Positions 10,553-47,749 of a DNA stretch of 64,000 nucleotides are shown piece by piece (position 1 is the first letter of the stretch; every line of letters starts with the position of its first letter). The DNA lies in the NCBI GenBank assembly GCA_022143435.1, contig GCA_022143435.1_3941.1; one strand, written 5' to 3'. Made by a program: the position numbers and the translations under genes. Under the pieces are notes generated by a model. It searched no databases and had not been told where the DNA came from. It saw only the letters and a program-made list of their open reading frames with translations. This DNA is from a phage.

Positions 10553-10759
10553 ATGCAAGTTTTAGTAAACTATATCTACCGTTATGATGTTATCCACTCA
10601 ACCAATACAGTTGCTCAACGCAACCCTATTGTACCACGAGAAGGTGAGTGGGTTCGTATTGATGGTTGGATTTATACTGTAGAGAATGTTATCCACAAAT
10701 TTGATGTGGGTGATGATACTCAAGTGATTGATGTAGAGATTGGTGGGAAGAGAAAATGA
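10553..10759 (+). CDS. hypothetical protein
   Basis: 68-aa ORF in operon. Confidence 0.45.
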   Translation: MQVLVNYIYRYDVIHSTNTVAQRNPIVPREGEWVRIDGWIYTVENVIHKFDVGDDTQVIDVEIGGKRK

Positions 10760-11859
10760 CAATTCTGTACAAACAAAATAAAGATGGCTCTTTTAACGTC
10801 TGGTCATGCGTTGCTGTAGGTGACAAAGTGGTTACCACGTATGGCAAAGAAAATGGCAAGATGATGTTTGAAGAGTACACAGCAGAACCAAAAAACATCG
10901 GCAAAAAGAATGAGCGTAACGCTGAACAGCAAGCTCTCTTTGAAGTTGCTGCTAAATACAAGAAGCAGGTTGACCGTAAAGGCTATGCTTATTCAAAATC
11001 TGCTGCACAGGAAGTTGAGAAGGTTGGTGTACAGCTTGCACATGATGCTTCCAAGGTTAGTCATGCAAAGTATCTGAAATTCCCTGCTGATGCTCAACCA
11101 AAACTTGACGGTGTTCGTTGCAGGATTTCTCGTCATCAAAGTCTTGGTGGAATGTTTACAGCTTATTCTCGTGAGAATACGGTTTACAACATCCCCGAAG
11201 AATTGATTCCAGATATAACTATGATGCTCAAACTTCATAAAGATGTGGATGAGTTTGACGGTGAGATTTATGCTCATGGTTGGGACTTGGAAGATATTGT
11301 ATCCATGATTAAGAATGCTGACAATCCAGACCGTCACCTACTTAAATTCTACTGGTATGATATCTGCGATAATTCTAAATCTTGGCCTGAGCGTCGTGAA
11401 ATCATTGATAACTCACCAATCGTTGAACTCGGTGATGCTTGCAGGGTTGTACCTGTTCAAACTATCCGTGTTAACTCTTGGGAAGAGTTCGACAAAGCCC
11501 ATGATAATTGGGTTAAGCTGAAGTTTGAAGGGGCTATGTACCGTTCAATCTCTGAAGAATCTTTCTACGAGTGTAGTCACCGTTCATACTTCTTAATCAA
11601 GCATAAGAAGATGCACACTGAAGAGTTTAAAGTAACTGGTGTGAAAACTGATAAACGTGGTCATGGTAAGTTTGTTGTAGAGACTCTTCCTAACGTCTTT
11701 GTAGATGTTTCATGGAAAACTACCCATGAGAAGAAGAAGTATCTTGCTGAACATCCTGAAGAGTTTATCGGGAAACCTTTGACGGTTCAGTTCCAGAAGA
11801 TGACTCGTAGGGGGTCTTTACAGTTCCCTGTTGGGTTAGTTATCAGAGATTATGAATAA
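10756..11859 (+). CDS. DNA ligase, ATP-dependent type
   Basis: Nucleotidyltransferase motif I KLDGVRC; further ligase-like motifs EGAMYRS, LIKHKK. Confidence 0.6.
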   Translation: MTILYKQNKDGSFNVWSCVAVGDKVVTTYGKENGKMMFEEYTAEPKNIGKKNERNAEQQALFEVAAKYKKQVDRKGYAYSKSAAQEVEKVGVQLAHDASKVSHAKYLKFPADAQPKLDGVRCRISRHQSLGGMFTAYSRENTVYNIPEELIPDITMMLKLHKDVDEFDGEIYAHGWDLEDIVSMIKNADNPDRHLLKFYWYDICDNSKSWPERREIIDNSPIVELGDACRVVPVQTIRVNSWEEFDKAHDNWVKLKFEGAMYRSISEESFYECSHRSYFLIKHKKMHTEEFKVTGVKTDKRGHGKFVVETLPNVFVDVSWKTTHEKKKYLAEHPEEFIGKPLTVQFQKMTRRGSLQFPVGLVIRDYE

Positions 11860-41072: not shown

Positions 41073-41096
41073 AAAAAAGACGGTACAGAGACCGTC
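41073..41096 (-). terminator. rho-independent terminator (end of tRNA transcription unit)
   Basis: GACGGT-loop-ACCGTC hairpin followed by T6 on the minus strand. Confidence 0.65.
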
Positions 41097-41258: not shown

Positions 41259-41334
41259 TGGAGAATCCGAAGGGACTCGAACCCTTATAAACCTGTTTTG
41301 CAGACAGGCACATATCCATTTCTGTCACGGATTC
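41259..41334 (-). tRNA. tRNA-Cys (GCA)
   Basis: Manual cloverleaf; 7-bp acceptor stem; CCA encoded. Confidence 0.65.
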
Positions 41335-41339
41335 AAAAT

Positions 41340-41432
41340 TGGAGGAAGATACCAGACTTGAACTGGTACACCGATTTCTCAGCTACTGGCAGTTTAGCAA
41401 ACTGCTCCCTTACCTTTTAGGGTTAATCTTCC
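41340..41432 (-). tRNA. tRNA-Ser (GCT), class II
   Basis: Long variable arm; anticodon loop TTGCTAA. Confidence 0.6.
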
Positions 41433-41433
41433 A

Positions 41434-42168
41434 TTATTTCTGTAATGCGCTCTTCATTTCTGGTGTTGCAATAGTGTCAATTACACCAGTTTTACAGGCA
41501 TCATCAAACCAGTCTGGTAAGATACCTGCTAAGAACCCATTGATATTCGTTTTAAGGTACTCTGCAATAAGGGCAGCTTCTTCTTCAATCATCTGCACAA
41601 CTTCATCTGCATAAGCTGTAATCTTTGAGATACCTTCATTAATCTTACTGACAGCTTGGTTAGCTAAATCAGAAACAGTATCAAGACCCTTGTCAATAGC
41701 GTCTTGTAAGTCACTTAATACATTGTTAACACTCTCTAGTGTACTGTTAATCATATCAATAGCTTTTTGACCATATTCTGTAGCAACACCCATAATACCA
41801 CTGAACGGTGTACAACCAACTTGTTCTCCTGCTGCACCCATAACATTGGAATATCCCTTTGCTACCTGCATACGTGATGAAAACTCATCAATAGATTTTT
41901 GACCGTAGTCTGTCAGGGTCTTAGTAGTTGCTGTAGTGCTTGTAAGGCTTGTTGTAAAGCTGTTTAGAAGGACTGTTGTAAGTCCAGCAGCAACAAGTTT
42001 CTCCTGCATTGTAGGGTCTGTTACAGAACTAATAGAGCTTACAAGTGATGTAGAAGCAGCTACGGTTCCACCGAGAACTGCTGCACCAGTAATAAGTGGG
42101 TTAGAAAACCCTTTACCGGTTTTTAAGAGATTAAAAATCTCCTTACCTTGTTCTGTCATCTCTTTCAT
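41434..42168 (-). CDS. hypothetical protein embedded in tRNA array
   Basis: Start moved to ATG 42168 (AGGTG upstream) because the track start overlaps tRNA-Phe. Confidence 0.4.
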   Translation of the reverse strand: MKEMTEQGKEIFNLLKTGKGFSNPLITGAAVLGGTVAASTSLVSSISSVTDPTMQEKLVAAGLTTVLLNSFTTSLTSTTATTKTLTDYGQKSIDEFSSRMQVAKGYSNVMGAAGEQVGCTPFSGIMGVATEYGQKAIDMINSTLESVNNVLSDLQDAIDKGLDTVSDLANQAVSKINEGISKITAYADEVVQMIEEEAALIAEYLKTNINGFLAGILPDWFDDACKTGVIDTIATPEMKSALQK

Positions 42169-42184
42169 TAAGCACCTTTGAAAT

Positions 42185-42260
42185 TGGTAGTCCAGTGGGA
42201 TTTGAACCCTCTTCTCATGTTTTTCAGACACGCGCTTTAACCATATAAGCTACTTGGACT
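42185..42260 (-). tRNA. tRNA-Phe (GAA)
   Basis: Manual cloverleaf; anticodon loop CTGAAAA. Confidence 0.6.
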
Positions 42261-42266
42261 ATAAAT

Positions 42267-42342
42267 TGGGGTGACCTACGGGATTTGAACCCGTATAGAC
42301 CATGTTCACAGCATGGGTCATTACCATTTATGATAAGGCCAC
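42267..42342 (-). tRNA. tRNA-His (GTG)
   Basis: Anticodon loop CTGTGAA. Confidence 0.6.
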
Positions 42343-42377
42343 ATTTAAGGACTCTCGTAAGAACCCTTAGAAGTGGC

Positions 42378-42448
42378 AGCGGCATAAGGATTTGAACCTT
42401 AATAGGACAGCTTCAGAGACTGTTGCATTGCCAGTTATGCTATACCGC
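42378..42448 (-). tRNA. tRNA-Gln (CTG)
   Basis: Anticodon loop CTCTGAA; CCA not encoded. Confidence 0.5.
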
Positions 42449-42454
42449 TAAATT

Positions 42455-42533
42455 TGGTACTCCATATCGGATTCGAACCGATACATAACACAGATTTTAA
42501 GTCTGGCCTCTCTGCCAATTGGAGTAATGGAGC
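42455..42533 (-). tRNA. tRNA with anticodon TAA (Leu by anticodon, short variable loop)
   Basis: Good acceptor and T arms; 4-bp anticodon stem; class-I-like length. Confidence 0.45.
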
Positions 42534-42535
42534 AT

Positions 42536-42611
42536 TGGCGGGGGATGTTGGAATTGAACCAACTTCTTCGATTTCAAAGACCGAGGTTTTAACCTTGTAA
42601 ACTAATCCCCT
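42536..42611 (-). tRNA. tRNA-Gln (TTG)
   Basis: Anticodon loop CTTTGAA. Confidence 0.5.
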
Positions 42612-42619
42612 TTAAATCT

Positions 42620-43177
42620 TTACTTTCTTAGTGGATGAATAAAGAATGCCAACATAACTCTTTCCCTTGAGAATGCTCTTTCTTCTGGGACAACACTTTT
42701 TAGCTTCCACCCAATATAAATTCTCCAGTAGAACTGTTTACCAAAGATTTTAATTGATGGGATAAAAGCGAATAATCCCCAAGCATTGCTGTTCCACATT
42801 AGGAGATAACCTGTCTGATTATCTTCAGGGTTAGAACTTACGTTGATATTACCTTTCCACTTAGTAACATCTTTTACATCTCTTCCTAATACATGGTAAG
42901 AGAAGTTATAAGCTTTGTTTCTCCAGAGCCATCCGACTCTTTGCATGTAGACACCTAGTTTACCAATCCATCTAATATTAGCCCATCTTTTAACGTGACC
43001 TTCATCACCATCAATTGGGTTGTCATATGTCTCCATCCATCTGAATCCGAAAGGTAAGTGTCCTTTCTTCTCACTGTAGAATGGAACTACAAAAGGTGCT
43101 AAGATAACTGCTAAGATTGCTGCAAATGGCTCTAACAAAGCTAAGAAAATCCATGAAGCATACTTCAAATATCTCAT
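42620..43177 (-). CDS. membrane protein embedded in tRNA array
   Basis: N-terminal hydrophobic segment WIFLALLEPFAAILAVILAPFVVPF; Trp-rich. Confidence 0.45.
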   Translation of the reverse strand: MRYLKYASWIFLALLEPFAAILAVILAPFVVPFYSEKKGHLPFGFRWMETYDNPIDGDEGHVKRWANIRWIGKLGVYMQRVGWLWRNKAYNFSYHVLGRDVKDVTKWKGNINVSSNPEDNQTGYLLMWNSNAWGLFAFIPSIKIFGKQFYWRIYIGWKLKSVVPEERAFSRERVMLAFFIHPLRK

Positions 43178-43196
43178 CTAAATAGCCTCTTTAAAT

Positions 43197-43272
43197 TGGC
43201 GCAGGATAAGGGATTCGAACCCCTATTAACAGCTTCGTAGACTGTTGCTCTATCCATTTGAACTAATCCTGC
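43197..43272 (-). tRNA. tRNA-Arg (ACG)
   Basis: Anticodon loop CTACGAA. Confidence 0.65.
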
Positions 43273-43277
43273 AAAAT

Positions 43278-43355
43278 TGGTGTTCCAAGACGGATTCGAA
43301 CCGTCACTAGTACAAGGTTTGAGCTTGCATCCTCTGCCAATTGGGATACTGGAAC
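43278..43355 (-). tRNA. tRNA with anticodon CAA (Leu by anticodon, short variable loop)
   Basis: 5-bp anticodon stem, loop CTCAAAC. Confidence 0.45.
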
Positions 43356-43356
43356 A

Positions 43357-43431
43357 TGGTACTCACTAAAGGACTTGAACCTTTTTCTTCATCTTGTAAG
43401 GGTGGTGTTTTACCATATAAACTAAGCGAGT
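43357..43431 (-). tRNA. tRNA-like, anticodon TAC (Val?), weak anticodon stem
   Basis: Good acceptor/D/T arms; anticodon stem has two C-A mismatches. Confidence 0.4.
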
Positions 43432-43527
43432 GTGAAAGAGGTCTGAAGTTGTGCCGCTAACTCAACTCCGTGGAATTTGTTACGGTCTTCAGTTGACTCA
43501 AAGCGGTCTTTCACTTGACCTCTAAAT
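43432..43527 (-). ncRNA. tRNA-sized structured element, not a canonical cloverleaf
   Basis: Perfect 7-bp terminal stem AGAGGTC/GACCTCT enclosing about 73 nt; no standard T-loop. Confidence 0.25.
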
Positions 43528-43603
43528 TGGTGCTCCCACAAGGATTCGAACCCTGATAAGTTGCTTACAAGGCAACCGTAATAGCCAATTATACGATAGG
43601 AGC
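43528..43603 (-). tRNA. tRNA-Thr (TGT)
   Basis: Anticodon loop CTTGTAA. Confidence 0.6.
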
Positions 43604-43610
43604 ATTAATT

Positions 43611-43685
43611 TGGAGCATCCAGAGGGAATCGAACCCTCAACCTCAGTTTGGAAGACTGTAATTTTCCCGTTTAAACTATGGATGC
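43611..43685 (-). tRNA. tRNA-Gly (TCC)
   Basis: Anticodon loop CTTCCAA. Confidence 0.6.
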
Positions 43686-43691
43686 ACTAAT

Positions 43692-43767
43692 TGGTGGAGT
43701 CACTGAGAATTGAACTCAGTTCCCAAGTTTGCAAAACTCGAATTTTAACCATATAAACTATGACCCC
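43692..43767 (-). tRNA. tRNA-Ala (TGC)
   Basis: Anticodon loop TTTGCAA. Confidence 0.6.
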
Positions 43768-43773
43768 ATTTTT

Positions 43774-43849
43774 TGGTACAGGTGGAGGGAATTGAACCCA
43801 TCGTCTTACTGATTAAGAGTCAGCCGCATAACCATTTTGCTACACCTGC
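43774..43849 (-). tRNA. tRNA-Lys (CTT)
   Basis: Anticodon loop CTCTTAA; register slightly ambiguous. Confidence 0.45.
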
Positions 43850-43856
43850 ATTAATT

Positions 43857-43934
43857 TGGTAGGAGACAAGGGATTCGAACCCTCAAACACCAACTTCTAA
43901 GGATGGTAGGTTTACCAATTACCGTCAATCTCCC
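43857..43934 (-). tRNA. tRNA with anticodon TAG (Leu by anticodon)
   Basis: Anticodon loop CTTAGAA, 4/5 stem pairs. Confidence 0.4.
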
Positions 43935-44190
43935 ATTAAATCTTTTTAGAGAACTTCTAAGAACCTAAGCAACAAGGTTCCACAACAAGCTGTAATAACC
44001 TTAGAAGCCCTCTAAAAAGACCTAAAAAGGTCTTTGCATAGTCTTGTTTAATCCGGTGACTAGAACCTTTGGAGAGCTTGATATTATCTCTTCTCCGTGA
44101 CACCTACTAGGTGCTTTACTGTGCGTGTACGACAATACACTAGGGATACCAAAGCAACATCCGAATGAAGCTTGGCTTTAAATCTTATTA

Positions 44191-44269
44191 GGCGGTAAGT
44201 AAAGGAGTCGAACCCTCACCGTATCTCTACAGTGGCAACTGTTTTCAAGACAGTTTGGCTACCATTAGC
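44191..44269 (-). tRNA. tRNA-Ser (TGA), class II
   Basis: Anticodon stem ACTGT/ACAGT, loop CTTGAAA, long variable arm. Confidence 0.55.
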
Positions 44270-44293
44270 CGCTACCTACCCCTAATAAGACTT

Positions 44294-44376
44294 TGGCATG
44301 GGACGGAGGAGTTGAACCCCTTTGAAACGGTTTTGGAGGCCGTTGCTCATGCCTTAGAGTCTTAACATCGCCCCAT
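44294..44376 (-). tRNA. tRNA-like with Trp-type anticodon loop CTCCAAA (CCA)
   Basis: Anticodon arm matches E. coli tRNA-Trp loop; D region about 7 nt too long for a standard cloverleaf. Confidence 0.35.
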
Positions 44377-44518
44377 ACTATAATTCGAAGCTTACCGTAT
44401 TATCTCAACACTGTAAAGCCCCTTCTCAGATTATTTACATGTTCTGGAAAACATGAGATACAGACCACCTCCCTACAGGAAGACCCGCTTAGGTCGTCTA
44501 AGTAATCTGCTAACTAAT

Positions 44519-44595
44519 TGGTACACCCTACAGGATTCGAACCTGTAACTAACGATTTAGAAGACCGTTGCTCTATCCAATTGAACTAAGGGTGC
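44519..44595 (-). tRNA. tRNA-Arg (TCT)
   Basis: Anticodon loop CTTCTAA. Confidence 0.6.
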
Positions 44596-44798
44596 ATTAA
44601 TCTTTAAAGACTCTCTTAGAAAGCCCTTAAAGATGCCCACCTTATTAATCATACCGTGGGCTAGTACGCCAAATTCTTTGATGAGGGATTGGAAGACCTC
44701 ACTGGTGTTTAGCCTATCAAGCTACTGCCAGAAAAACATTGTCGTTTGCATTTATTTTAAATTTGCAAAATAGACGCTACGCAACGAAAACTAAGGTT

Positions 44799-44827
44799 AC
44801 TATAAAGTAGTCACATCTCAATGTCAA
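44799..44827 (-). promoter_or_regulatory. sigma70-like promoter inside tRNA array (TTGACA-N17-TATAGT)
   Basis: Read on minus strand; would drive the tRNAs at lower coordinates. Confidence 0.5.
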
Positions 44828-44842
44828 CAACTTTATTGAAAT

Positions 44843-44917
44843 TGGTTGTAGGTGAGGGTATCGAACCCTCTTCTAACGGTTATCAGCCGTTTGCATTACC
44901 ATTTATGCTAACCCACA
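44843..44917 (-). tRNA. tRNA-Ile (GAT)
   Basis: Anticodon loop CTGATAA. Confidence 0.65.
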
Positions 44918-44919
44918 AT

Positions 44920-44996
44920 TGGAGGTTCAGATGGGAATCGAACCCACATTCATAGGGCTTATGAGACCCTTGCATTACCTTATCTGCGACTGAACC
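44920..44996 (-). tRNA. tRNA-Met (CAT)
   Basis: Anticodon loop CTCATAA. Confidence 0.6.
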
Positions 44997-45000
44997 ATTT

Positions 45001-45076
45001 TGGTAGAAGTGGAGGGATTCGAACCCATCGCCTGTCAGATTAAAAGTCTGCCGCATCACCATTCTGCTACACTTCC
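45001..45076 (-). tRNA. tRNA-Lys (TTT)
   Basis: Anticodon loop CTTTTAA. Confidence 0.55.
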
Positions 45077-45081
45077 ATTAA

Positions 45082-45229
45082 ATTATCTTTGTAGATAAGC
45101 TACCCAGACTTGCTTAAGGTCTGTAGCGATGTGCCTTTTTGGGTTTAAATCTAGAATTTACCCTTTCACCCTTTGTGGTCGCATACTCACAGGTAAGCTT
45201 AATAACTTATCTACAAAGATAATTACCAG
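45082..45229. repeat. 18-bp inverted repeat (ATTATCTTTGTAGATAAG ... CTTATCTACAAAGATAAT) flanking about 110 bp
   Basis: Read directly; inside a tRNA-free gap of the array. Confidence 0.7.
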
Positions 45230-45504
45230 ACCGTTGTTTATCATCTTAAGTGCTACCATTACACCAACTCGACATCTGCCGAGTGAAGGAATCGAACCTT
45301 CGCCTTTTCTTTACCGAGAAATAGATTGTTTAAGTTTTGCTGTAAACGGTCTTCTGTAAATTTGTTGAGCCAGACCAAGTTTTAGATTTTCAAAATTAAA
45401 TTGGCTTGAAATTTCATACGTTCTTGCTGTATTTGGTCTTCTGCTCCTTTAAAGGATACTCGTAAGAACCCTTTAAGGGAGGGGCTAAATAGCCCTCTCA
45501 AAAT

Positions 45505-45583
45505 TGGCGGTTACGAAGGGATTTGAACCCTCATCATCTCCCGTGACAGGGGAGTATTTTAACCAAATTAAACTACATAACCT
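45505..45583 (-). tRNA. tRNA-Asp (GTC)
   Basis: Anticodon stem CTCCC/GGGAG, loop CTGTCAC. Confidence 0.65.
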
Positions 45584-45587
45584 TTAT

Positions 45588-45675
45588 TGGTGTGCCGTGT
45601 AGGAGTCGAACCTACCGAGTCTCAATGACAAGGGATTTACAGTCCCCACCGCTACCATCTACGGGATAACGACAC
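45588..45675 (-). tRNA. tRNA-Tyr (GTA), class II
   Basis: Anticodon loop CTGTAAA with long variable arm. Confidence 0.6.
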
Positions 45676-45684
45676 ATTTAAATT

Positions 45685-45761
45685 TGGCGGTTAGTCAGGG
45701 ATTCGAACCCTGTGCCATTCGCTTAACAGGCTACCGCACATACCTTATGTGCTTCCTAACC
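45685..45761 (-). tRNA. tRNA-Asn (GTT), imperfect anticodon stem
   Basis: Anticodon loop CTGTTAA; good acceptor and T arms. Confidence 0.45.
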
Positions 45762-45838
45762 TTAATACATTGCCAGACCGTGTTTTTTCTTTTATCCGCA
45801 AAAAGTAGTTTGTTGCTGAATACGGTCTTCTGCAAAAT

Positions 45839-45915
45839 TGGAGGCGGGTGCAGGAGTCGAACCTGCCGATACCATGCTAATGAGACATGTGAGACGCCCT
45901 TTCTCTATACCCGCA
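45839..45915 (-). tRNA. tRNA with anticodon CAT (second Met, initiator or Ile-lysidine type)
   Basis: Anticodon loop CTCATTA. Confidence 0.5.
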
Positions 45916-46006
45916 ATTCTTAATGACCAGACCAAATCTCTTCTTTGTCCGATTTCGTGTCAGATGAATAAGATTAAACTTGCTGTAATTGGTCTTCTGT
46001 CAAAAC

Positions 46007-46084
46007 TGGCGTTCCAGAAGGGATTTGAACCCTCAAATATCCACTTTGAAAGAGTGGTGACTTTACCATTTTGTCTACTGGAAC
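46007..46084 (-). tRNA. tRNA-Glu (TTC)
   Basis: Anticodon stem CCACT/AGTGG, loop CTTTCAA. Confidence 0.65.
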
Positions 46085-46091
46085 ATTAATT

Positions 46092-46168
46092 TGGTCTCTG
46101 TTGGAGGACTTGAACCTCCGGCCTTACCGTCCCAAACGGAACGCTCTACCAATCTGAGCTAAACAGAG
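46092..46168 (-). tRNA. tRNA-Pro (TGG)
   Basis: Canonical D arm GCTCAGATTGGTAGAGC; anticodon loop TTTGGGA. Confidence 0.65.
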
Positions 46169-46333
46169 ATAAACTTTTCAAACTCTATGTAACCACTTTA
46201 ACATTATTTTTTAGTGGTTGTCAAGAACTTTTTTAAAATATTTTTCAGTATCTTAGAAAAGCTCTCATTTCGTTTCTATGTAGAACATATTAAAGGGTAT
46301 CAAACACATTGTCAATACCCTTTTTAAAACTTT

Positions 46334-47749
46334 TTACCAGATATAACGGTCAATCATTACTGCTTTGAGCATTACGCTGATTGGGTCAAACTTCTCACCA
46401 CCAAGCAAAGCTTTTAAAGTGGCTGGAGAGAACCCTGATACCATTGCTACACCGTTATCCTTAACAGACACTTCGCAAGTACCATTACGGTTTGCTAAGT
46501 ACCAGAATACCAGTTGTGGCATCTCATATCCAGCTTTCTTGTACTTGCTCTGAATTGCTTCAAAGTTTGTACGACCGTTAGCTCCATCAACCTGATTGAA
46601 CTCCATATCGGAGAAGATGATAAGCTTACTTGGCATATCTTCCTGAGTCAAGTTGTTTCTCTTACCTATCTCAAGAATGCGGTCAAAAGCTGCTTGTAAG
46701 TTGGTTGAGCCATATTCAACGTGTCGCATCACCTGACGATGACGGTTTCGTAAATCACCACTCAGTTCGATGAAGTGAGGGTTTGTTGAATAAACCATCA
46801 ACTCATCCTTAAAGCAACCTGTATTGCGTTCTGCTACATACAAGGCAAGTGATACACCAATATCAAGAGCAGTAATGGAGCCAAAATTCACCCAAGACAT
46901 TGAGCTTGAAACATCAGTCATACATAAGATGTTTTCACCTTCTGCCATCCAGTTTGGTAGTGCTTTCCACTGCTCATTAGCAACATCTGCATTACCATGC
47001 TTGACAGATTTAATCACATCGTATGGGTAAACAGCACCAGCATTAATCTTAGCCTCACCCTTTGATAAGGACTCGATGTAAGCTTTGTAGCGTTCTCCAT
47101 CTTTACGGTTAAACAGTTTTTGGTAACGTGCAGCAGCAAGTGAAGGAATCTTACTGTAGTCAATCTTACCAAACTCATTAGCAGAGATTTTTTGCTCAAC
47201 TGTATCAGATAGTGCAGACAACAGTGTGCGGTACTCTTTCTCACTCAGGTTGGCAAATTTGCAGAAACGTTTTACAAACTGTTTATGACGTGGTTTGACT
47301 CGTGGTAACCACTTAGCTGCCAAACCTGCTGTTGCAGGGTCTAGTAATGCCGCTTCTAAATGTTTGAAGGCATCTGTCTCGAAACGAGTACCTACGAAGA
47401 TTTTGAAGTCATCAAAACGACCAAGTTCTGCAATCTTATCCATAATGCGAAGAACCTGTGTAGGCTCTAAAACTTTATCTTCAATTGCTTGAAGCAAAAC
47501 AGTTCTGAAGGCTTTACGCTCACCCATACCTTCTCGTACATCTCGCATATGAAGCAAAATACGAACTGCAACATCAACATCCTCACGCAAAGCTTTGTAG
47601 AACAAGTCTGGTAAGATTTCTACATTGCTACGGCTCGAACCAGCAGCTTTGTAAAAGTCCACAAGAGCAGACATTGATGAAGTATGGTTTACAGCACCAT
47701 TTTCAGTTCGACCTGCATGAAGGTGCGCATGTTTGAATAATTCGCTCAT
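46334..47749 (-). CDS. vWA-domain protein with about 270-aa helical N-terminal domain
   Basis: MIDAS-type motif NILCMTDVSSSMSW and later LIIFSDMEF; architecture recalls TROVE+vWA (Ro60-like) proteins (inference). Confidence 0.6.
   Translation of the reverse strand: MSELFKHAHLHAGRTENGAVNHTSSMSALVDFYKAAGSSRSNVEILPDLFYKALREDVDVAVRILLHMRDVREGMGERKAFRTVLLQAIEDKVLEPTQVLRIMDKIAELGRFDDFKIFVGTRFETDAFKHLEAALLDPATAGLAAKWLPRVKPRHKQFVKRFCKFANLSEKEYRTLLSALSDTVEQKISANEFGKIDYSKIPSLAAARYQKLFNRKDGERYKAYIESLSKGEAKINAGAVYPYDVIKSVKHGNADVANEQWKALPNWMAEGENILCMTDVSSSMSWVNFGSITALDIGVSLALYVAERNTGCFKDELMVYSTNPHFIELSGDLRNRHRQVMRHVEYGSTNLQAAFDRILEIGKRNNLTQEDMPSKLIIFSDMEFNQVDGANGRTNFEAIQSKYKKAGYEMPQLVFWYLANRNGTCEVSVKDNGVAMVSGFSPATLKALLGGEKFDPISVMLKAVMIDRYIW

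What the first reader, a model, noticed from the sequence alone, without database searches (positions are those of the whole stretch)
41259..46168. Array of about 27 tRNA genes with non-canonical members and conserved hairpin spacers
All tRNAs are on the minus strand and by my anticodon reads cover essentially all 20 amino acids. Three carry Leu anticodons (TAA, CAA, TAG) but class-I length; the Val-like and Trp-like members have C-A mismatches in or at the anticodon stem. Spacers between tRNAs repeatedly contain inverted repeats CCAGACC...GGTCTTCTG (about 45229-45350, 45370-45438, 45769-45830, 45930-45998), plausibly processing signals. A sigma70-like promoter (44799-44827) and two terminators lie inside or at the end of the array, and two protein genes, one a membrane protein, are embedded.
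Basis: partly seen in the sequence, partly recalled or inferred. Interest (0 to 1): 0.5.

Follow-up and report, generated by a model that had tools for sequence, protein, structure and literature searches.

The report
Phage tRNA array hiding Y-like RNAs
This is the known tRNA gene cluster of a Felix O1-like E. coli phage, but its repeated "hairpin spacers" belong to a widespread, apparently undescribed family of small structured RNAs (one mimics a tRNA) that in very different phages sits beside the gene for a Ro60-like ring protein, so they are probably that protein's RNA partners, not tRNA processing signals.

Summary
The window comes from a Felixounavirus (97% identical to several E. coli phages). 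ARAGORN finds 26 minus-strand tRNAs, and a conserved but non-canonical Trp-like 27th is missed by the tools. The three tRNA-Leu have 5-7 nt variable loops.

The "processing signal" reading is not supported. Each repeat (E1-E4) is a stem-closed module: 5'-CAGA-AGACCNN-NU-WCAGCAA...NNGGUCU-GG. E4 also carries a circularly permuted tRNA-like domain (V hairpin, T arm, acceptor-like hairpin, D arm), which is the architecture of bacterial YrlA Y RNAs.

In 75 distant phage contigs that encode this protein, the same motif clusters on the gene strand within 500 nt of the gene (64/99 versus 21/215 sites on the opposite strand, p 2e-23). It is also found in mycobacteriophage, Listeria, Campylobacter, Aeromonas and Sinorhizobium phages. 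Covariance models built without any Felix sequence recover E4 (74.8 bits, E 1e-14) and E1-E3 (E 6e-6 to 6e-5).

Best reading: these are Y-like RNAs released from the tRNA precursor and bound by the Ro60-like protein. Binding and function are inferred, not shown.

The parts
46334..47749 (-). Gene for a 471-aa Ro60-like protein (Pfam DUF2828 + DUF7788/vWA); ortholog of Bas63 gp130
46287..46315 (-). Sigma-70-like promoter TTGACA-17-TAATAT between the Ro60-like gene and the array; overlaps a 12-bp hairpin just after the gene
46195..46224 (-). Second sigma-70-like promoter TTGACA-18-TAAAGT (TG extended) upstream of tRNA-Pro
46007..46168 (-). tRNA-Pro(tgg) and tRNA-Glu(ttc)
45927..45999 (-). E1: short Y-like RNA module (CAGA-AGACCAA-UU-ACAGCAA ... 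UUGGUCU-GG). It starts 7 nt after tRNA-Glu and ends 11 nt before tRNA-Met.
   Evidence: Model R2, built from 38 non-Felix elements, scores it 29.5 bits, E 6e-5. R1 scores it 27.1 bits.
45839..45915 (-). tRNA-Met(cat)
45773..45832 (-). E2: short Y-like RNA module (AGACCGU-AU-UCAGCAA ... ACGGUCU-GG). Its inner hairpin loop UGCGGAU is identical to that of a mycobacteriophage element.
   Evidence: R2 scores it 33.4 bits, E 6e-6.
45505..45761 (-). tRNA-Asn(gtt), tRNA-Tyr(gta, class II, 88 nt), tRNA-Asp(gtc)
45370..45443 (-). E3: short Y-like RNA module (AGACCAA-AU-ACAGCAA ... UUGGUCU-GG)
   Evidence: R2 scores it 29.6 bits, E 6e-5.
45226..45356 (-). E4: YrlA-like RNA. An 8-bp closing stem and UU-ACAGCAA enclose a circularly permuted tRNA-like domain: V hairpin UUUCU-CGGUA-AGAAA, T arm GAAGG-UUCGAUU-CCUUC, acceptor-like hairpin ACUCGGC-AGAU-GUCGAGU, and D arm GUGU-AAUGGUA-GCAC.
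   Evidence: Model R1, built only from non-Felix phages, scores it 74.8 bits, E 1.2e-14, over the full length. The MFE fold reproduces the architecture. The acceptor-like stem is fully compensated in SUSP2/Sf16 (ACACG/CGUGU) and in Moogle (ACCCUUC/GAAGGGU).
45081..45224 (-). 144-nt RNA closed by a ~24-bp stem. Its inner hairpin CAGAC-CUUAAGCAA-GUCUG-G resembles a minimal copy of the E motif.
   Evidence: Inverted repeat I2. Folding z-score -6.2. Conserved, with 8 compensatory pairs, in 4 relatives.
44843..45076 (-). tRNA-Lys(ttt), tRNA-Met(cat), tRNA-Ile(gat)
44799..44827 (-). Internal sigma-70-like promoter TTGACA-17-TATAGT (11/12)
44519..44595 (-). tRNA-Arg(tct)
44293..44376 (-). Trp-like tRNA candidate (anticodon CCA, G73, encoded CCA, C31.A39 mismatch, oversized D region). 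No tRNA finder calls it.
   Evidence: Read. Only a tRNA-Sec hit of 21 bits, E 1.2. Conserved in relatives, with one compensatory T-stem change in Moogle and one disruption in momo.
44191..44280 (-). tRNA-Ser(tga), class II; the only tRNA without an encoded CCA
43857..43934 (-). tRNA-Leu(tag), short form: 5-nt variable loop, A73
43528..43849 (-). tRNA-Lys(ctt), Ala(tgc), Gly(tcc), Thr(tgt)
43357..43431 (-). tRNA-Val(tac) with C27.A43 and C30.A40 mismatches in the anticodon stem
   Evidence: (55.8 bits)
43278..43355 (-). tRNA-Leu(caa), short form: 6-nt variable loop, A73, D loop CAAUUGGCAGA
43197..43272 (-). tRNA-Arg(acg)
42620..43177 (-). Embedded ORF, 185 aa, DUF7338, hydrophobic N-terminus
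   Evidence: E 1.6e-61
42536..42611 (-). tRNA-Gln(ttg)
42455..42533 (-). tRNA-Leu(taa), short form: 7-nt variable loop, A73, 3-bp D stem, D loop CAAUUGGCAGA
42185..42449 (-). tRNA-Gln(ctg), His(gtg), Phe(gaa)
41434..42168 (-). Embedded ORF, DUF7217. The likely start is the ATG at 42168 behind AAAGGUG (244 aa, as annotated in SUSP2 and Moogle). The longest ORF, from the GTG at 42231, would overlap tRNA-Phe.
   Evidence: (E 4.5e-87)
41259..41432 (-). tRNA-Ser(gct) and tRNA-Cys(gca); end of the array
41079..41096 (-). Terminator-like hairpin GACGGTCTCTGTACCGTC followed by TTTTTT, downstream of the array

Best explanation
The region is the tRNA operon of a Felixounavirus. It holds 26 standard-detectable tRNAs and one aberrant Trp-like tRNA, and it also encodes at least four non-tRNA small RNAs, E1-E4.

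Proposed mechanism:
1. The array is transcribed from sigma-70-type promoters as polycistronic precursors.
2. Host tRNA-processing enzymes (RNase P at each tRNA 5' end, 3' trimming) cut out the tRNAs and so release the spacer RNAs.
3. Each spacer RNA folds into a module closed by a 7-8 bp stem. The outer end of the stem is conserved (A-G-R ... Y-C-U followed by an unpaired G), and the stem presents a single-stranded U-(A/U)CAGCAA.
4. This module is the binding site for the ring-shaped Ro60-like protein encoded immediately upstream. E1-E3 are simple Y-like RNAs.
5. E4 also carries a permuted tRNA-like domain, as bacterial YrlA does. By analogy with Y RNAs, that domain would tether or gate the Ro60-like protein towards tRNA-recognising enzymes or nucleases.
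6. The likely purpose is RNA surveillance or repair, or counter-defence, during infection.

Shown here: the sequence family, its structure with covariation, its co-occurrence with the protein gene across distant phages, and the protein's Ro60 fold.

Inferred: release by processing, physical binding, and the biological role.
For: 1. The repeats are real: 4 copies against 0.01 expected. The closing-stem extension covaries among the copies, AA/UU in E1 and E3 and GU/AC in E2 and E4.

2. Yersinia phage P778 (protein 54% identical) has four analogous elements. Their stems differ (GGACUG/CAGUCC, GGAUUC/GAAUCC, GGACUC/GAGUCC) but UU(A)CAGCAA is kept.

3. The module sits on the gene strand beside the DUF2828 gene in these phages:
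   - Aeromonas phage 4_4572 (6 copies)
   - Campylobacter phage CPX (2)
   - mycobacteriophage Rumpelstiltskin (3)
   - Listeria phage AG20 (3)
   - Cronobacter phage S13
   - Sinorhizobium phage phiN3

4. In 75 IMG/VR contigs encoding a 39-48% identical protein:
   - 100 stem-closed sites lie on the gene strand against 21 on the other strand, 66 of them within 500 nt of the gene, and 54 of 75 loci are positive.
   - Near the gene, 64 of 99 core sites have the closing stem, against 21 of 215 on the opposite strand (Fisher p 2e-23).

5. In 101 distinct elements, the outermost pair, which the scan did not require, forms in 90%, and the 3' unpaired G is 89% conserved.

6. tRNA-like members share one order: stem, ACAGCAA, V, T arm, acceptor-like hairpin, D arm, stem. 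On 20 non-Felix sequences, 91.9% of cells are paired against about 40% in slid controls. The covariation score is 0.73 against 0.11-0.16, and 19 of 21 pairs show double changes.

7. Models built without Felix sequences find E4 at 74.8 bits, E 1e-14. They also find E2, E3 and E1 as the three top hits in the window, E 6e-6 to 6e-5. There is nothing in the T5 tRNA region and only weak chance-level or tandem-tRNA matches in the T2 region.

8. The Rfam YrlA model gives sub-threshold but non-random full-length hits (36-39 bits, E 3e-5 to 3e-4) on exactly these tRNA-like elements in four distant loci.

9. The protein has a Ro60 fold over both domains and an intact MIDAS motif.

10. Published precedent:
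   - Y RNAs are encoded within 4 kb of Ro60, on the same strand, in bacteria and 22 phages (PMC4201824).
   - Thermus phage phiLo Ro60 binds two phage-encoded Y-like RNAs (PMC12135203).
   - Bas63 gp130 was noted to be Ro60-like, with a guess that some 'tRNAs' are Y RNAs (PMC11482910).

11. In Vibrio phage ValKK3 the motif's closing stem covers the RBS and AUG of the DUF2828 gene itself. This is what one would expect of a protein-binding operator.
Against: - No experiment here shows that E1-E4 accumulate as RNAs or bind the protein. The link is genomic co-occurrence plus analogy.
- Bas63 gp130 expressed alone, from a plasmid or from T7, is enough to counter the Ppl defence (PMC11482910). That phenotype therefore does not need these phage RNAs.
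- The motif ACAGCAA differs from the GNCGAA(N)G / GGUCCGA motif of known Y RNAs.
- The Rfam YrlA model does not hit E4 itself.
- Pfam TROVE is not detected in the protein, and a profile search against PDB sequences finds Ro60 only at E 0.9.
- Folding energies of E1 and E3 alone are unremarkable, z -1.2 and -0.7.
- The motif scan demanded a 6-bp stem, so pairing in that stem is partly circular. The controls above address this but do not replace an unbiased search.
- E-values from the home-built models are rough.
Confidence: 0.6

Rival explanations
1. The spacer hairpins are cis-acting processing signals for maturation of the polycistronic tRNA precursor. On this view they are recognised by RNase E, RNase III or RNase P and have no function after cleavage.
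For: E1 and E2 sit 6-7 nt after one tRNA and 11 nt before the next. In IMG/VR contig L139 the elements are also tightly flanked by tRNAs. Phage tRNA precursors do need processing (general knowledge).
Against: - The module is found next to the DUF2828 gene where no tRNA is found within the fetched 11-kb locus, as in mycobacteriophage Rumpelstiltskin.
- It can lie upstream or downstream of that gene.
- It is absent from the T5 and T2 tRNA clusters.
- Most tRNA junctions in this same array are 1-9 nt long and have no such element.
- A 7-bp stem is too short for RNase III (general knowledge).
- A processing signal would not need a complete tRNA-like domain with covarying arms.
Confidence: 0.08
2. 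The motif is a cis-regulatory operator: the DUF2828 protein binds it in its own transcript to autoregulate. The copies in the Felix tRNA array would be titrating or vestigial sites and not functional trans-acting RNAs.
For: Many elements lie 18-60 nt upstream or about 30 nt downstream of the gene. In ValKK3 the closing stem covers the gene's RBS and AUG.
Against: In Felixounavirus the four copies are 335-1100 nt downstream of the gene, behind two promoters and interleaved with tRNAs. There are multiple copies per genome (up to 6), and many include a tRNA-like domain. Unpermuted versions end in an acceptor stem with CCA, like free-standing RNAs. This rival still assumes that the protein binds the motif, so it overlaps the main explanation.
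Confidence: 0.12
3. E4 and its relatives are tRNA decoys or tRNA-gene debris that work, or merely persist, independently of the Ro60-like protein. Examples would be bait for host anticodon nucleases, or remnants of two adjacent tRNA genes (the 3' half of one plus the 5' half of the next).
For: The order T arm, acceptor 3' strand, acceptor 5' strand, D arm is what a junction of two tandem tRNAs gives. Model R1 does give weak hits (20-35 bits) on such junctions. Phage tRNAs are known counter-measures to tRNA-targeting defences (cited in PMC11482910).
Against: E4 scores 74.8 bits, against at most 36 for real tandem junctions. The two acceptor-like strands pair perfectly with each other, and this pairing is kept by wholesale compensatory change in three genera. 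The domain is always enclosed by the ACAGCAA stem module and always lies near a DUF2828 gene. Short members E1-E3 have no tRNA-like part at all.
Confidence: 0.1
4. The repeats are miniature mobile elements or target sites of the homing endonucleases that populate these arrays.
For: HNH endonuclease genes are inserted in the array in some relatives. The repeats have inverted-repeat ends.
Against: The copies share only about 20 nt at the 5' end and 9 nt at the 3' end, and their interiors are unrelated. Each copy keeps the same position between the same tRNAs in Felixouna-, Susp- and Mooglevirus. The stems covary and are not identical. There are no target-site duplications.
Confidence: 0.02

Closest known systems
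Bacterial Ro60 (Rsr) with YrlA/YrlB Y RNAs (Chen et al. 2014, PMC4201824; Rfam RF02553)
   Same: A ring protein with the Ro60 fold is encoded next to, and on the same strand as, small RNAs. At least one of these RNAs has a tRNA-like domain in the order V, T arm, acceptor-like stem-loop, D arm, enclosed by a terminal stem, and shorter partner RNAs lie beside it. Relatives of E4 in other phages get sub-threshold YrlA hits.
   Different: The protein is Pfam DUF2828/DUF7788, not TROVE. The conserved RNA motif is A-G-R stem + U-WCAGCAA + Y-C-U-G, not GNCGAA(N)G. E4 is not detected by the Rfam model. Here the RNAs are interleaved with genuine tRNAs.
Thermus phage phiLo Ro60 with Yrl1/Yrl2 (PMC12135203; PDB 9KOP, 9L5Y)
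   Different: phiLo Ro60 is a recognisable TROVE protein. Its Yrls were picked by a CGAA motif and a stem-bulge-stem shape. No tRNA array or tRNA-like domain is reported there.
Bas63 (JohannRWettstein) gp130, counter of the Ppl defence (PhageMaP preprint, PMC11482910)
   Same: It is the orthologous protein (97% identity) in the same synteny, and E4 is present in Bas63 at 74.4 bits. The authors noted the structural similarity to Ro60 and guessed that some annotated tRNAs might be Y RNAs.
   Different: They did not identify any RNA. The candidates found here are the unannotated spacers, not the annotated tRNAs, and in Bas63 they lie under probably spurious minus-strand CDSs bas63_0137/0138. gp130 alone sufficed against Ppl.
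Small stable RNAs inside the T5 (RNA I, III, IV, rna1, rna2, RNA2H) and T4 (species 1 and 2) tRNA clusters
   Same: Non-tRNA small RNAs encoded between phage tRNA genes and presumably released by the same processing (T5 annotation; the T4 case is from general knowledge).
   Different: The T5 and T2 tRNA regions have no ACAGCAA stem module, and no match to this protein was seen in T5 or T4-like coliphages among the listed tblastn records.
Felix O1-type tRNA arrays (17-23 tRNAs reported per Felixounavirus genome, PMC8300805)
   Same: The same array: 236 phage records cover at least 80% of it at 80-99% identity.
   Different: Published counts come from tRNAscan-SE and say nothing of the short Leu tRNAs, the Trp-like member or the spacer RNAs.
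tRNA-Leu without a long variable arm (animal mitochondria)
   Same: A Leu anticodon, A73 and a short variable loop. [quoted passage not shown]
   Different: The phage tRNAs keep a bacterial-type Leu D arm (3-bp stem, AAUUGGYAGA loop), a normal T arm and an encoded CCA.

Membership tests
Ro60 / TROVE-vWA ring proteins | Overall fold: a HEAT-repeat ring followed by a von Willebrand A domain | tested here: met
Ro60 / TROVE-vWA ring proteins | Sequence match to the Pfam TROVE domain or to Ro60 sequences | tested here: not met
   Pfam gives DUF7788, DUF2828 and a weak VWA_2 only. phmmer against PDB finds nothing. A 49-sequence profile finds Ro60 at E 0.9, over the vWA part only.
Ro60 / TROVE-vWA ring proteins | MIDAS motif (DxSxS ... 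T ... D) in the vWA domain | tested here: met
   D279, S281, S283, T349 and D381 are invariant in 49 homologs.
Ro60 / TROVE-vWA ring proteins | Binds Y RNAs or misfolded RNAs | not testable with these tools
   Only genomic co-occurrence with the RNA motif is available.
YrlA-type Y RNA (Rfam RF02553) | tRNA-like domain in the order V, T arm, acceptor-like stem-loop, D arm, enclosed by a stem formed by the 5' and 3' ends | tested here: met
   E4 MFE fold. Full-length alignment to model R1. The structure is supported by covariation in 20 relatives and by compensatory acceptor-like stems in orthologs. The defining order is taken from PMC4201824.
YrlA-type Y RNA (Rfam RF02553) | Reaches the Rfam gathering score (69 bits) | tested here: not met
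   No YrlA hit on E4 even at E <= 10. Related elements in L157, L210, L213 and phiN3 reach 36-39 bits, E 3e-5 to 3e-4.
YrlA-type Y RNA (Rfam RF02553) | 5' motif GNCGAA(N0-1)G, thought to contact Ro60 | tested here: not met
   E1-E4 carry CAGAAGACC...WCAGCAA. The family consensus is A-G-R-stem, U, WCAGCAA, compared with the motif.
YrlA-type Y RNA (Rfam RF02553) | Encoded within 4 kb of the Ro60 gene on the same strand | tested here: met
   E1-E4 lie 335-1100 nt downstream of the gene on the same strand.
Bacterial tRNA-Leu (class II) | Long variable arm (stem-loop, >10 nt) | tested here: not met
   Variable loops are 7, 6 and 5 nt, and total length is 75-76 nt plus CCA. T5 and T2 tRNA-Leu are 85 and 87 nt.
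Bacterial tRNA-Leu (class II) | E. coli LeuRS identity set: A73, A15-U48, G18G19 and the D-loop layout (PMC9976931) | tested here: met
   All three have A73, a D loop (C/U)AAUUGG(C/U)A(G/A)A containing A14, A15, G18 and G19, and U as the last variable-loop base (read). The review says the long arm is not needed by E. coli LeuRS. Actual charging is not testable here.
Canonical tRNA (for the Trp-like element 44293-44376) | Recognised by ARAGORN or the Rfam tRNA model | tested here: not met
   Absent. Only a tRNA-Sec hit of 21.1 bits, E 1.2.
Canonical tRNA (for the Trp-like element 44293-44376) | 7-bp acceptor stem, discriminator + CCA, T arm, 7-nt anticodon loop with U33 | tested here: inconclusive
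   The acceptor stem, G73-CCA and the loop CUCCAAA are present. However, the 31-39 pair is C.A, the T stem has an A.C mismatch, and the D region is 23 nt with no clear stem. It is conserved across three genera, with one compensatory change and one disruptive change.

The most novel reading that the evidence does not exclude
A large, so far undescribed class of phage non-coding RNAs is the cognate partner of the DUF2828 Ro60-like proteins, which are found in at least 710 phage genome records (Felix O1-like, Listeria P100-like, cluster L mycobacteriophages, KVP40-like vibriophages, Campylobacter and Aeromonas phages). The class is defined by a closing stem with an A-G-R/Y-C-U-G end and a single-stranded U-WCAGCAA.

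It comes in three forms built from the same module:
- short RNAs;
- circularly permuted tRNA-like RNAs such as E4;
- unpermuted tRNA-shaped RNAs in which the module replaces the anticodon arm.

In Felixounavirus these RNAs are made by 'tRNA punctuation' of the tRNA operon. They would form an RNP that acts in phage RNA quality control or counter-defence.
Probability: 0.5. Interest if true: 0.8.

Novelty: new variant of a known kind. Interest (0 to 1): 0.64.

Why it matters
Ro60-Y RNA particles are known from animals, some bacteria and a few phages with recognisable TROVE proteins. Their role in phage infection is open.

If the spacer RNAs are the ligands of the DUF2828 protein, several things follow:
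- The system extends to hundreds of phages, including tractable ones (Bas63, Felix O1, Listeria A511/P100-type, cluster L mycobacteriophages).
- There is a defined, mutable recognition motif (ACAGCAA plus the stem end) to test.
- The system becomes linked to a protein already shown to defeat a bacterial defence (Ppl).
- Part of the long-unexplained non-tRNA sequence inside phage tRNA arrays is accounted for. Several annotated small ORFs there are probably spurious.

The short tRNA-Leu genes raise a separate question about why some phages drop the class II arm. Both questions can be tested directly with RIP-seq, tRNA-seq and simple deletions.

Tried and rejected
1. Pairing of each GGUCUGG with the CAGAAGACC of the next element, which would give the canonical Y-RNA strand orientation and enclose a tRNA. 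Rejected: the two bases that extend the stem covary only within an element, AA/UU or GU/AC. Models and orthologs support the within-element stem.

2. A scan of IMG/VR for CAGAAGACC-N5-CAGCAA. It returned mostly single chance matches; only 12 of 111 have GGTCT downstream. It was useful only as a background estimate. Multi-copy loci were Felixounaviruses.

3. Sequence-level links of the protein to solved structures. Not significant; only fold comparison worked.

4. Rfam at gathering and at permissive thresholds on the window. No known family covers E1-E4. The weak hits (Dicty class I RNA, tmRNA_permuted, MIR473) are below threshold and are attributed to tRNA-likeness or chance.

5. Thermodynamic stability alone. 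Uninformative for E1 and E3.

6. E4 as a junction of two decayed tRNAs. Rejected on score and on compensatory acceptor-like pairing.

7. A literature search for DUF2828, for Ro-like phage proteins and for Ro60 anti-defence. No description of these RNAs was found in the held library, which lacks most subscription journals.

8. I did not resolve the D arm of the Trp-like element, or whether the two tRNA-Met(cat) genes are initiator, elongator or Ile2-type.

Full report
**Identity of the window.** The region 41259-46168 is 96-98% identical over its full length to many Felixounavirus genomes (LinBro, VpaE1, JH2, momo and others). 400 phage records match, and 236 of them cover at least 80% of the query. 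The neighbours are the large terminase and the portal on one side, and a 471-aa 'vWFA / RNA-binding protein' on the other. A tRNA array at this position is a known feature of the genus: tRNAscan-SE reports 17-23 tRNAs per genome (PMC8300805).

**Check of the observation.**
- ARAGORN finds 26 tRNAs, all on the minus strand. Rfam finds 24 of them above its gathering score. Twenty-five of the 26 encode their CCA. They cover 19 amino acids, and Trp is missing.
Read from the sequence, it has a good acceptor stem, G73-CCA and an anticodon loop CUCCAAA, which is one substitution away from the E. coli tRNA-Trp arm (compared from memory). It also has a C31.A39 mismatch, an A.C mismatch in the T stem and a 23-nt D region with no clear stem.
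- No tool calls the Trp-like element. It is nevertheless conserved in Felixouna-, Moogle- and Suspvirus, with one compensatory and one disruptive T-stem change. I leave it as a conserved, non-canonical tRNA-like gene of uncertain function.
- The three tRNA-Leu are indeed short, with variable loops of 7, 6 and 5 nt. They keep A73 and a Leu-type D arm (3-bp stem, loop AAUUGGYAGA, U48).
- According to the identity review PMC9976931, these retained features are what E. coli LeuRS needs, while the long arm is dispensable. The same review says tRNA-Leu has a long arm everywhere except animal mitochondria. The short form is therefore unusual but plausibly chargeable.
- The short form recurs in SUSP2, Yersinia phage P778, an IMG/VR relative, Campylobacter phage CPX and Aeromonas phage Ah1. 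T5, T2 and Listeria phage AG20 have class II tRNA-Leu.
- tRNA-Val(tac) has two C.A mismatches in its anticodon stem.
- The internal promoter is a near-perfect consensus match, and two more promoter-like sites precede the array.
- Only one terminator-like site, past the end of the array, was found on the sense strand.
- The two embedded ORFs are DUF7217 and DUF7338.

**The spacer repeats.**
- On the tRNA strand the four repeats read 5'-CAGA-AGACCNN-NU-WCAGCAA ... NNGGUCU-GG-3'. There are four copies against 0.01 expected.
- The two bases that extend the AGACC/GGUCU stem are AA/UU in E1 and E3, and GU/AC in E2 and E4. The stem therefore closes each element; it does not bridge neighbouring elements.
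- E4 (45226-45356) contains, in this order: a small hairpin, a T arm (GAAGG-UUCGAUU-CCUUC), a 7-bp hairpin ACUCGGC-AGAU-GUCGAGU, and a D arm (GUGU-AAUGGUA-GCAC). That is a tRNA whose ends have been moved to the anticodon side.
- This is the layout Chen et al. described for bacterial YrlA Y RNAs (V, T, acceptor-like stem-loop, D; PMC4201824).

**The neighbouring protein.**
- The gene directly upstream, on the same strand (46334-47749), is DUF2828 + DUF7788 by Pfam and has no significant sequence match to solved structures.
- An AlphaFold2 model built from 49 homologs is confident, with pLDDT 89.3 and pTM 0.89.
- The MIDAS residues are invariant.
- The protein is 97% identical to Bas63 gp130. 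[quoted passage not shown]
- Homologs occur in 710 phage records. They are annotated 'RNA-binding protein', or 'Ro-like RNA binding protein' in mycobacteriophages.

**Does the RNA motif travel with the protein?**
- Yersinia phage P778 (54% protein identity) has four analogous elements in its tRNA array. Their stems differ (GGACUG/CAGUCC, GGAUUC/GAAUCC, GGACUC/GAGUCC), UU(A)CAGCAA is unchanged, and one copy has a T arm.
- I wrote a simple scan for [6-bp stem]-N2-3-[AU]C[AC]GCAA ... [stem], which gives 2.5 chance hits per 64 kb over both strands.
- On the gene strand next to the DUF2828 gene, the scan finds:
  - six elements in Aeromonas phage 4_4572
  - two in Campylobacter phage CPX
  - three in mycobacteriophage Rumpelstiltskin
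  - three in Listeria phage AG20
  - one in Cronobacter phage S13
  - two in Sinorhizobium phage phiN3
- In 75 IMG/VR contigs encoding a 39-48% identical protein, 100 such sites lie on the gene strand against 21 on the other. 66 of the 100 lie within 500 nt of the gene, which is about 10% of the sequence scanned. 54 of the 75 loci are positive.
- Near the gene, 64 of 99 core heptamers have the closing stem, against 21 of 215 on the opposite strand (p 2e-23).
- The T5 and T2 tRNA regions have none.
- The Rumpelstiltskin locus has no tRNA hit at all. The association is therefore with the protein gene and not with tRNA genes.
- Over 101 distinct non-Felix elements the consensus is A-G-R-W-U-N-N / N-U / W-C-A-G-C-A-A ... 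N-N-A-W-Y-C-U-G. The outermost pair, which the scan did not require, forms in 90%, and an unpaired 3' G is present in 89%.

**Structure and membership.**
- Thirty of the scan hits contain a T-loop-like sequence, and most of these share E4's module order.
- An alignment of 20 of them from non-Felix phages supports 21 base pairs in five helices. 91.9% of cells are paired against 37-44% when partners are slid. The covariation score is 0.73 against 0.11-0.16, and 19 of 21 pairs show double changes.
- Only the closing stem was selected by my scan. The T, acceptor-like and D helices are independent evidence.
- A covariance model from this alignment (R1) finds E4 as the best hit in the window (74.8 bits, E 1.2e-14, full length). 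It also finds the E4 orthologs in momo, SUSP2, Sf16, Moogle and Bas63.
- Junctions of real tandem tRNAs, which mimic the permuted order, score at most about 36 bits with R1.
- A second model from 38 short non-Felix elements (R2) returns E2, E3 and E1 as the three top hits in window + T5 + T2 (33.4, 29.6 and 29.5 bits; E 6e-6 to 6e-5), and nothing significant elsewhere.
- Among Ounavirinae, E4's acceptor-like hairpin exists in three wholly different but always paired versions, while the T and D arms stay constant.
- The Rfam YrlA model does not reach its threshold on any member and misses E4. It does give full-length hits of 36-39 bits (E 3e-5 to 3e-4) on the tRNA-like elements of four distant loci. 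This ties the class to YrlA as a remote relative or a convergent equivalent.
- In Aeromonas phage Ah1, Aeromonas phage 4_4572 and Cronobacter phage S13 the same module also occurs unpermuted. There, tRNA-shaped RNAs with a CCA end have their anticodon arm replaced by [Y-C-U-G - loop - A-G-R stem - UU - ACMGCAA]. The stem-plus-heptamer is therefore a self-contained unit.

**Interpretation.**
- The most economical reading is that E1-E4 are Y-like RNAs for the Ro60-like protein. They would be made from the tRNA precursor: E1 and E2 are separated from flanking tRNAs by only 6-11 nt.
- What is shown:
  - a conserved structured RNA family
  - its linkage to the protein gene
  - the protein's fold
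- What is inferred:
  - processing into stable RNAs
  - binding to the protein
  - the biological role
- By analogy with Rsr/Y RNA/PNPase and with the phiLo Ro60-Yrl-PNPase complex (PMC12135203), the tRNA-like domain of E4 may tether the ring protein to a tRNA-recognising enzyme or nuclease.
- A caution: Bas63 gp130 alone rescues T7 from Ppl. At least that activity does not need the phage RNAs.
- In Vibrio phage ValKK3 the motif closes over the protein's own start codon. This suggests protein binding and autoregulation there.

**Novelty.** The array itself and the Ro60-likeness of the protein are known. In the library I could search, which lacks most subscription journals, nothing describes these spacer RNAs, their motif or their linkage to DUF2828 proteins. 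I rate this a new variant of a known kind (Ro60-Y RNA systems). The short tRNA-Leu genes are a second, smaller curiosity.

Noticed in passing
window 42455-42533, 43278-43355, 43857-43934 (-); also L002, L004, L129, L133, L139: tRNA-Leu genes with 5-7 nt variable loops instead of the class II long arm. They keep A73 and a Leu-type D arm, and they recur in several Gram-negative phage lineages. T5, T2 and Listeria phage AG20 keep class II tRNA-Leu.
   Followed up: partly
window 45081-45224 (-): A 144-nt element closed by a ~24-bp stem (folding z-score -6.2). It is conserved, with 8 compensatory pairs, in Bas63, SUSP2, Sf16 and Moogle. Its inner hairpin CAGAC-CUUAAGCAA-GUCUG-G looks like a minimal copy of the E motif.
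   Followed up: partly
window 43432-43527 (-): The 96-nt spacer between tRNA-Thr and tRNA-Val has a closing stem AGAGGUC/GACCUCU and an inner stem CUGAAG/CUUCAG around ACCGUAACAAAU. It may be a degenerate E-like element. Neither model calls it.
   Followed up: no
window 45445-45470 (-) and 42348-42372 (-); also 44600-44634 and 43936-44025: A second family of spacer hairpins, built on AAGGGUUCUUACGAG..UCCUU(U)AA, and two long imperfect palindromes (26-nt and 17-nt arms). Their function is unknown, and none has a U tract.
   Followed up: no
L133 8786-8905, L127 3495-3610, L128 7895-8015 and 8025-8137: tRNA-shaped RNAs of 113-121 nt with acceptor stem and CCA. Their anticodon arm is replaced by the stem + UU + ACMGCAA module capped by a loop: an unpermuted version of E4. 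Some are annotated as tRNA-Ser or tRNA-OTHER.
   Followed up: partly
L126 (Vibrio phage ValKK3) 5965-6005: The motif GACAUU-UU-ACAGCAA...AAUGUC pairs across the ribosome-binding site and AUG of the DUF2828 gene itself. This suggests translational autoregulation.
   Followed up: no
L131 (Listeria phage AG20) 4622-4884 and 4959-11455: Three elements directly precede the DUF2828 gene. That gene is followed by an RtcB-like 'tRNA splicing ligase', a phosphohydrolase, a tRNA amidotransferase and an RNA ligase. This echoes the bacterial rsr-yrlA-rtcBA RNA repair locus.
   Followed up: no
L216 (Bas63, MZ501086) 10749-11023: The annotated minus-strand CDSs bas63_0137 and bas63_0138 overlie the region that holds E3 and E4 and are probably not real genes. 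Knock-out data for them would in fact report on these RNAs.
   Followed up: partly
window 44191-44280 (-): tRNA-Ser(tga) is the only one of the 26 tRNAs without an encoded 3' CCA.
   Followed up: no
window 41434-42231 (-): The longest ORF for the DUF7217 gene starts at a GTG inside tRNA-Phe. The ATG at 42168, behind AAAGGUG, gives the 244-aa product annotated in SUSP2 and Moogle and avoids the overlap.
   Followed up: yes
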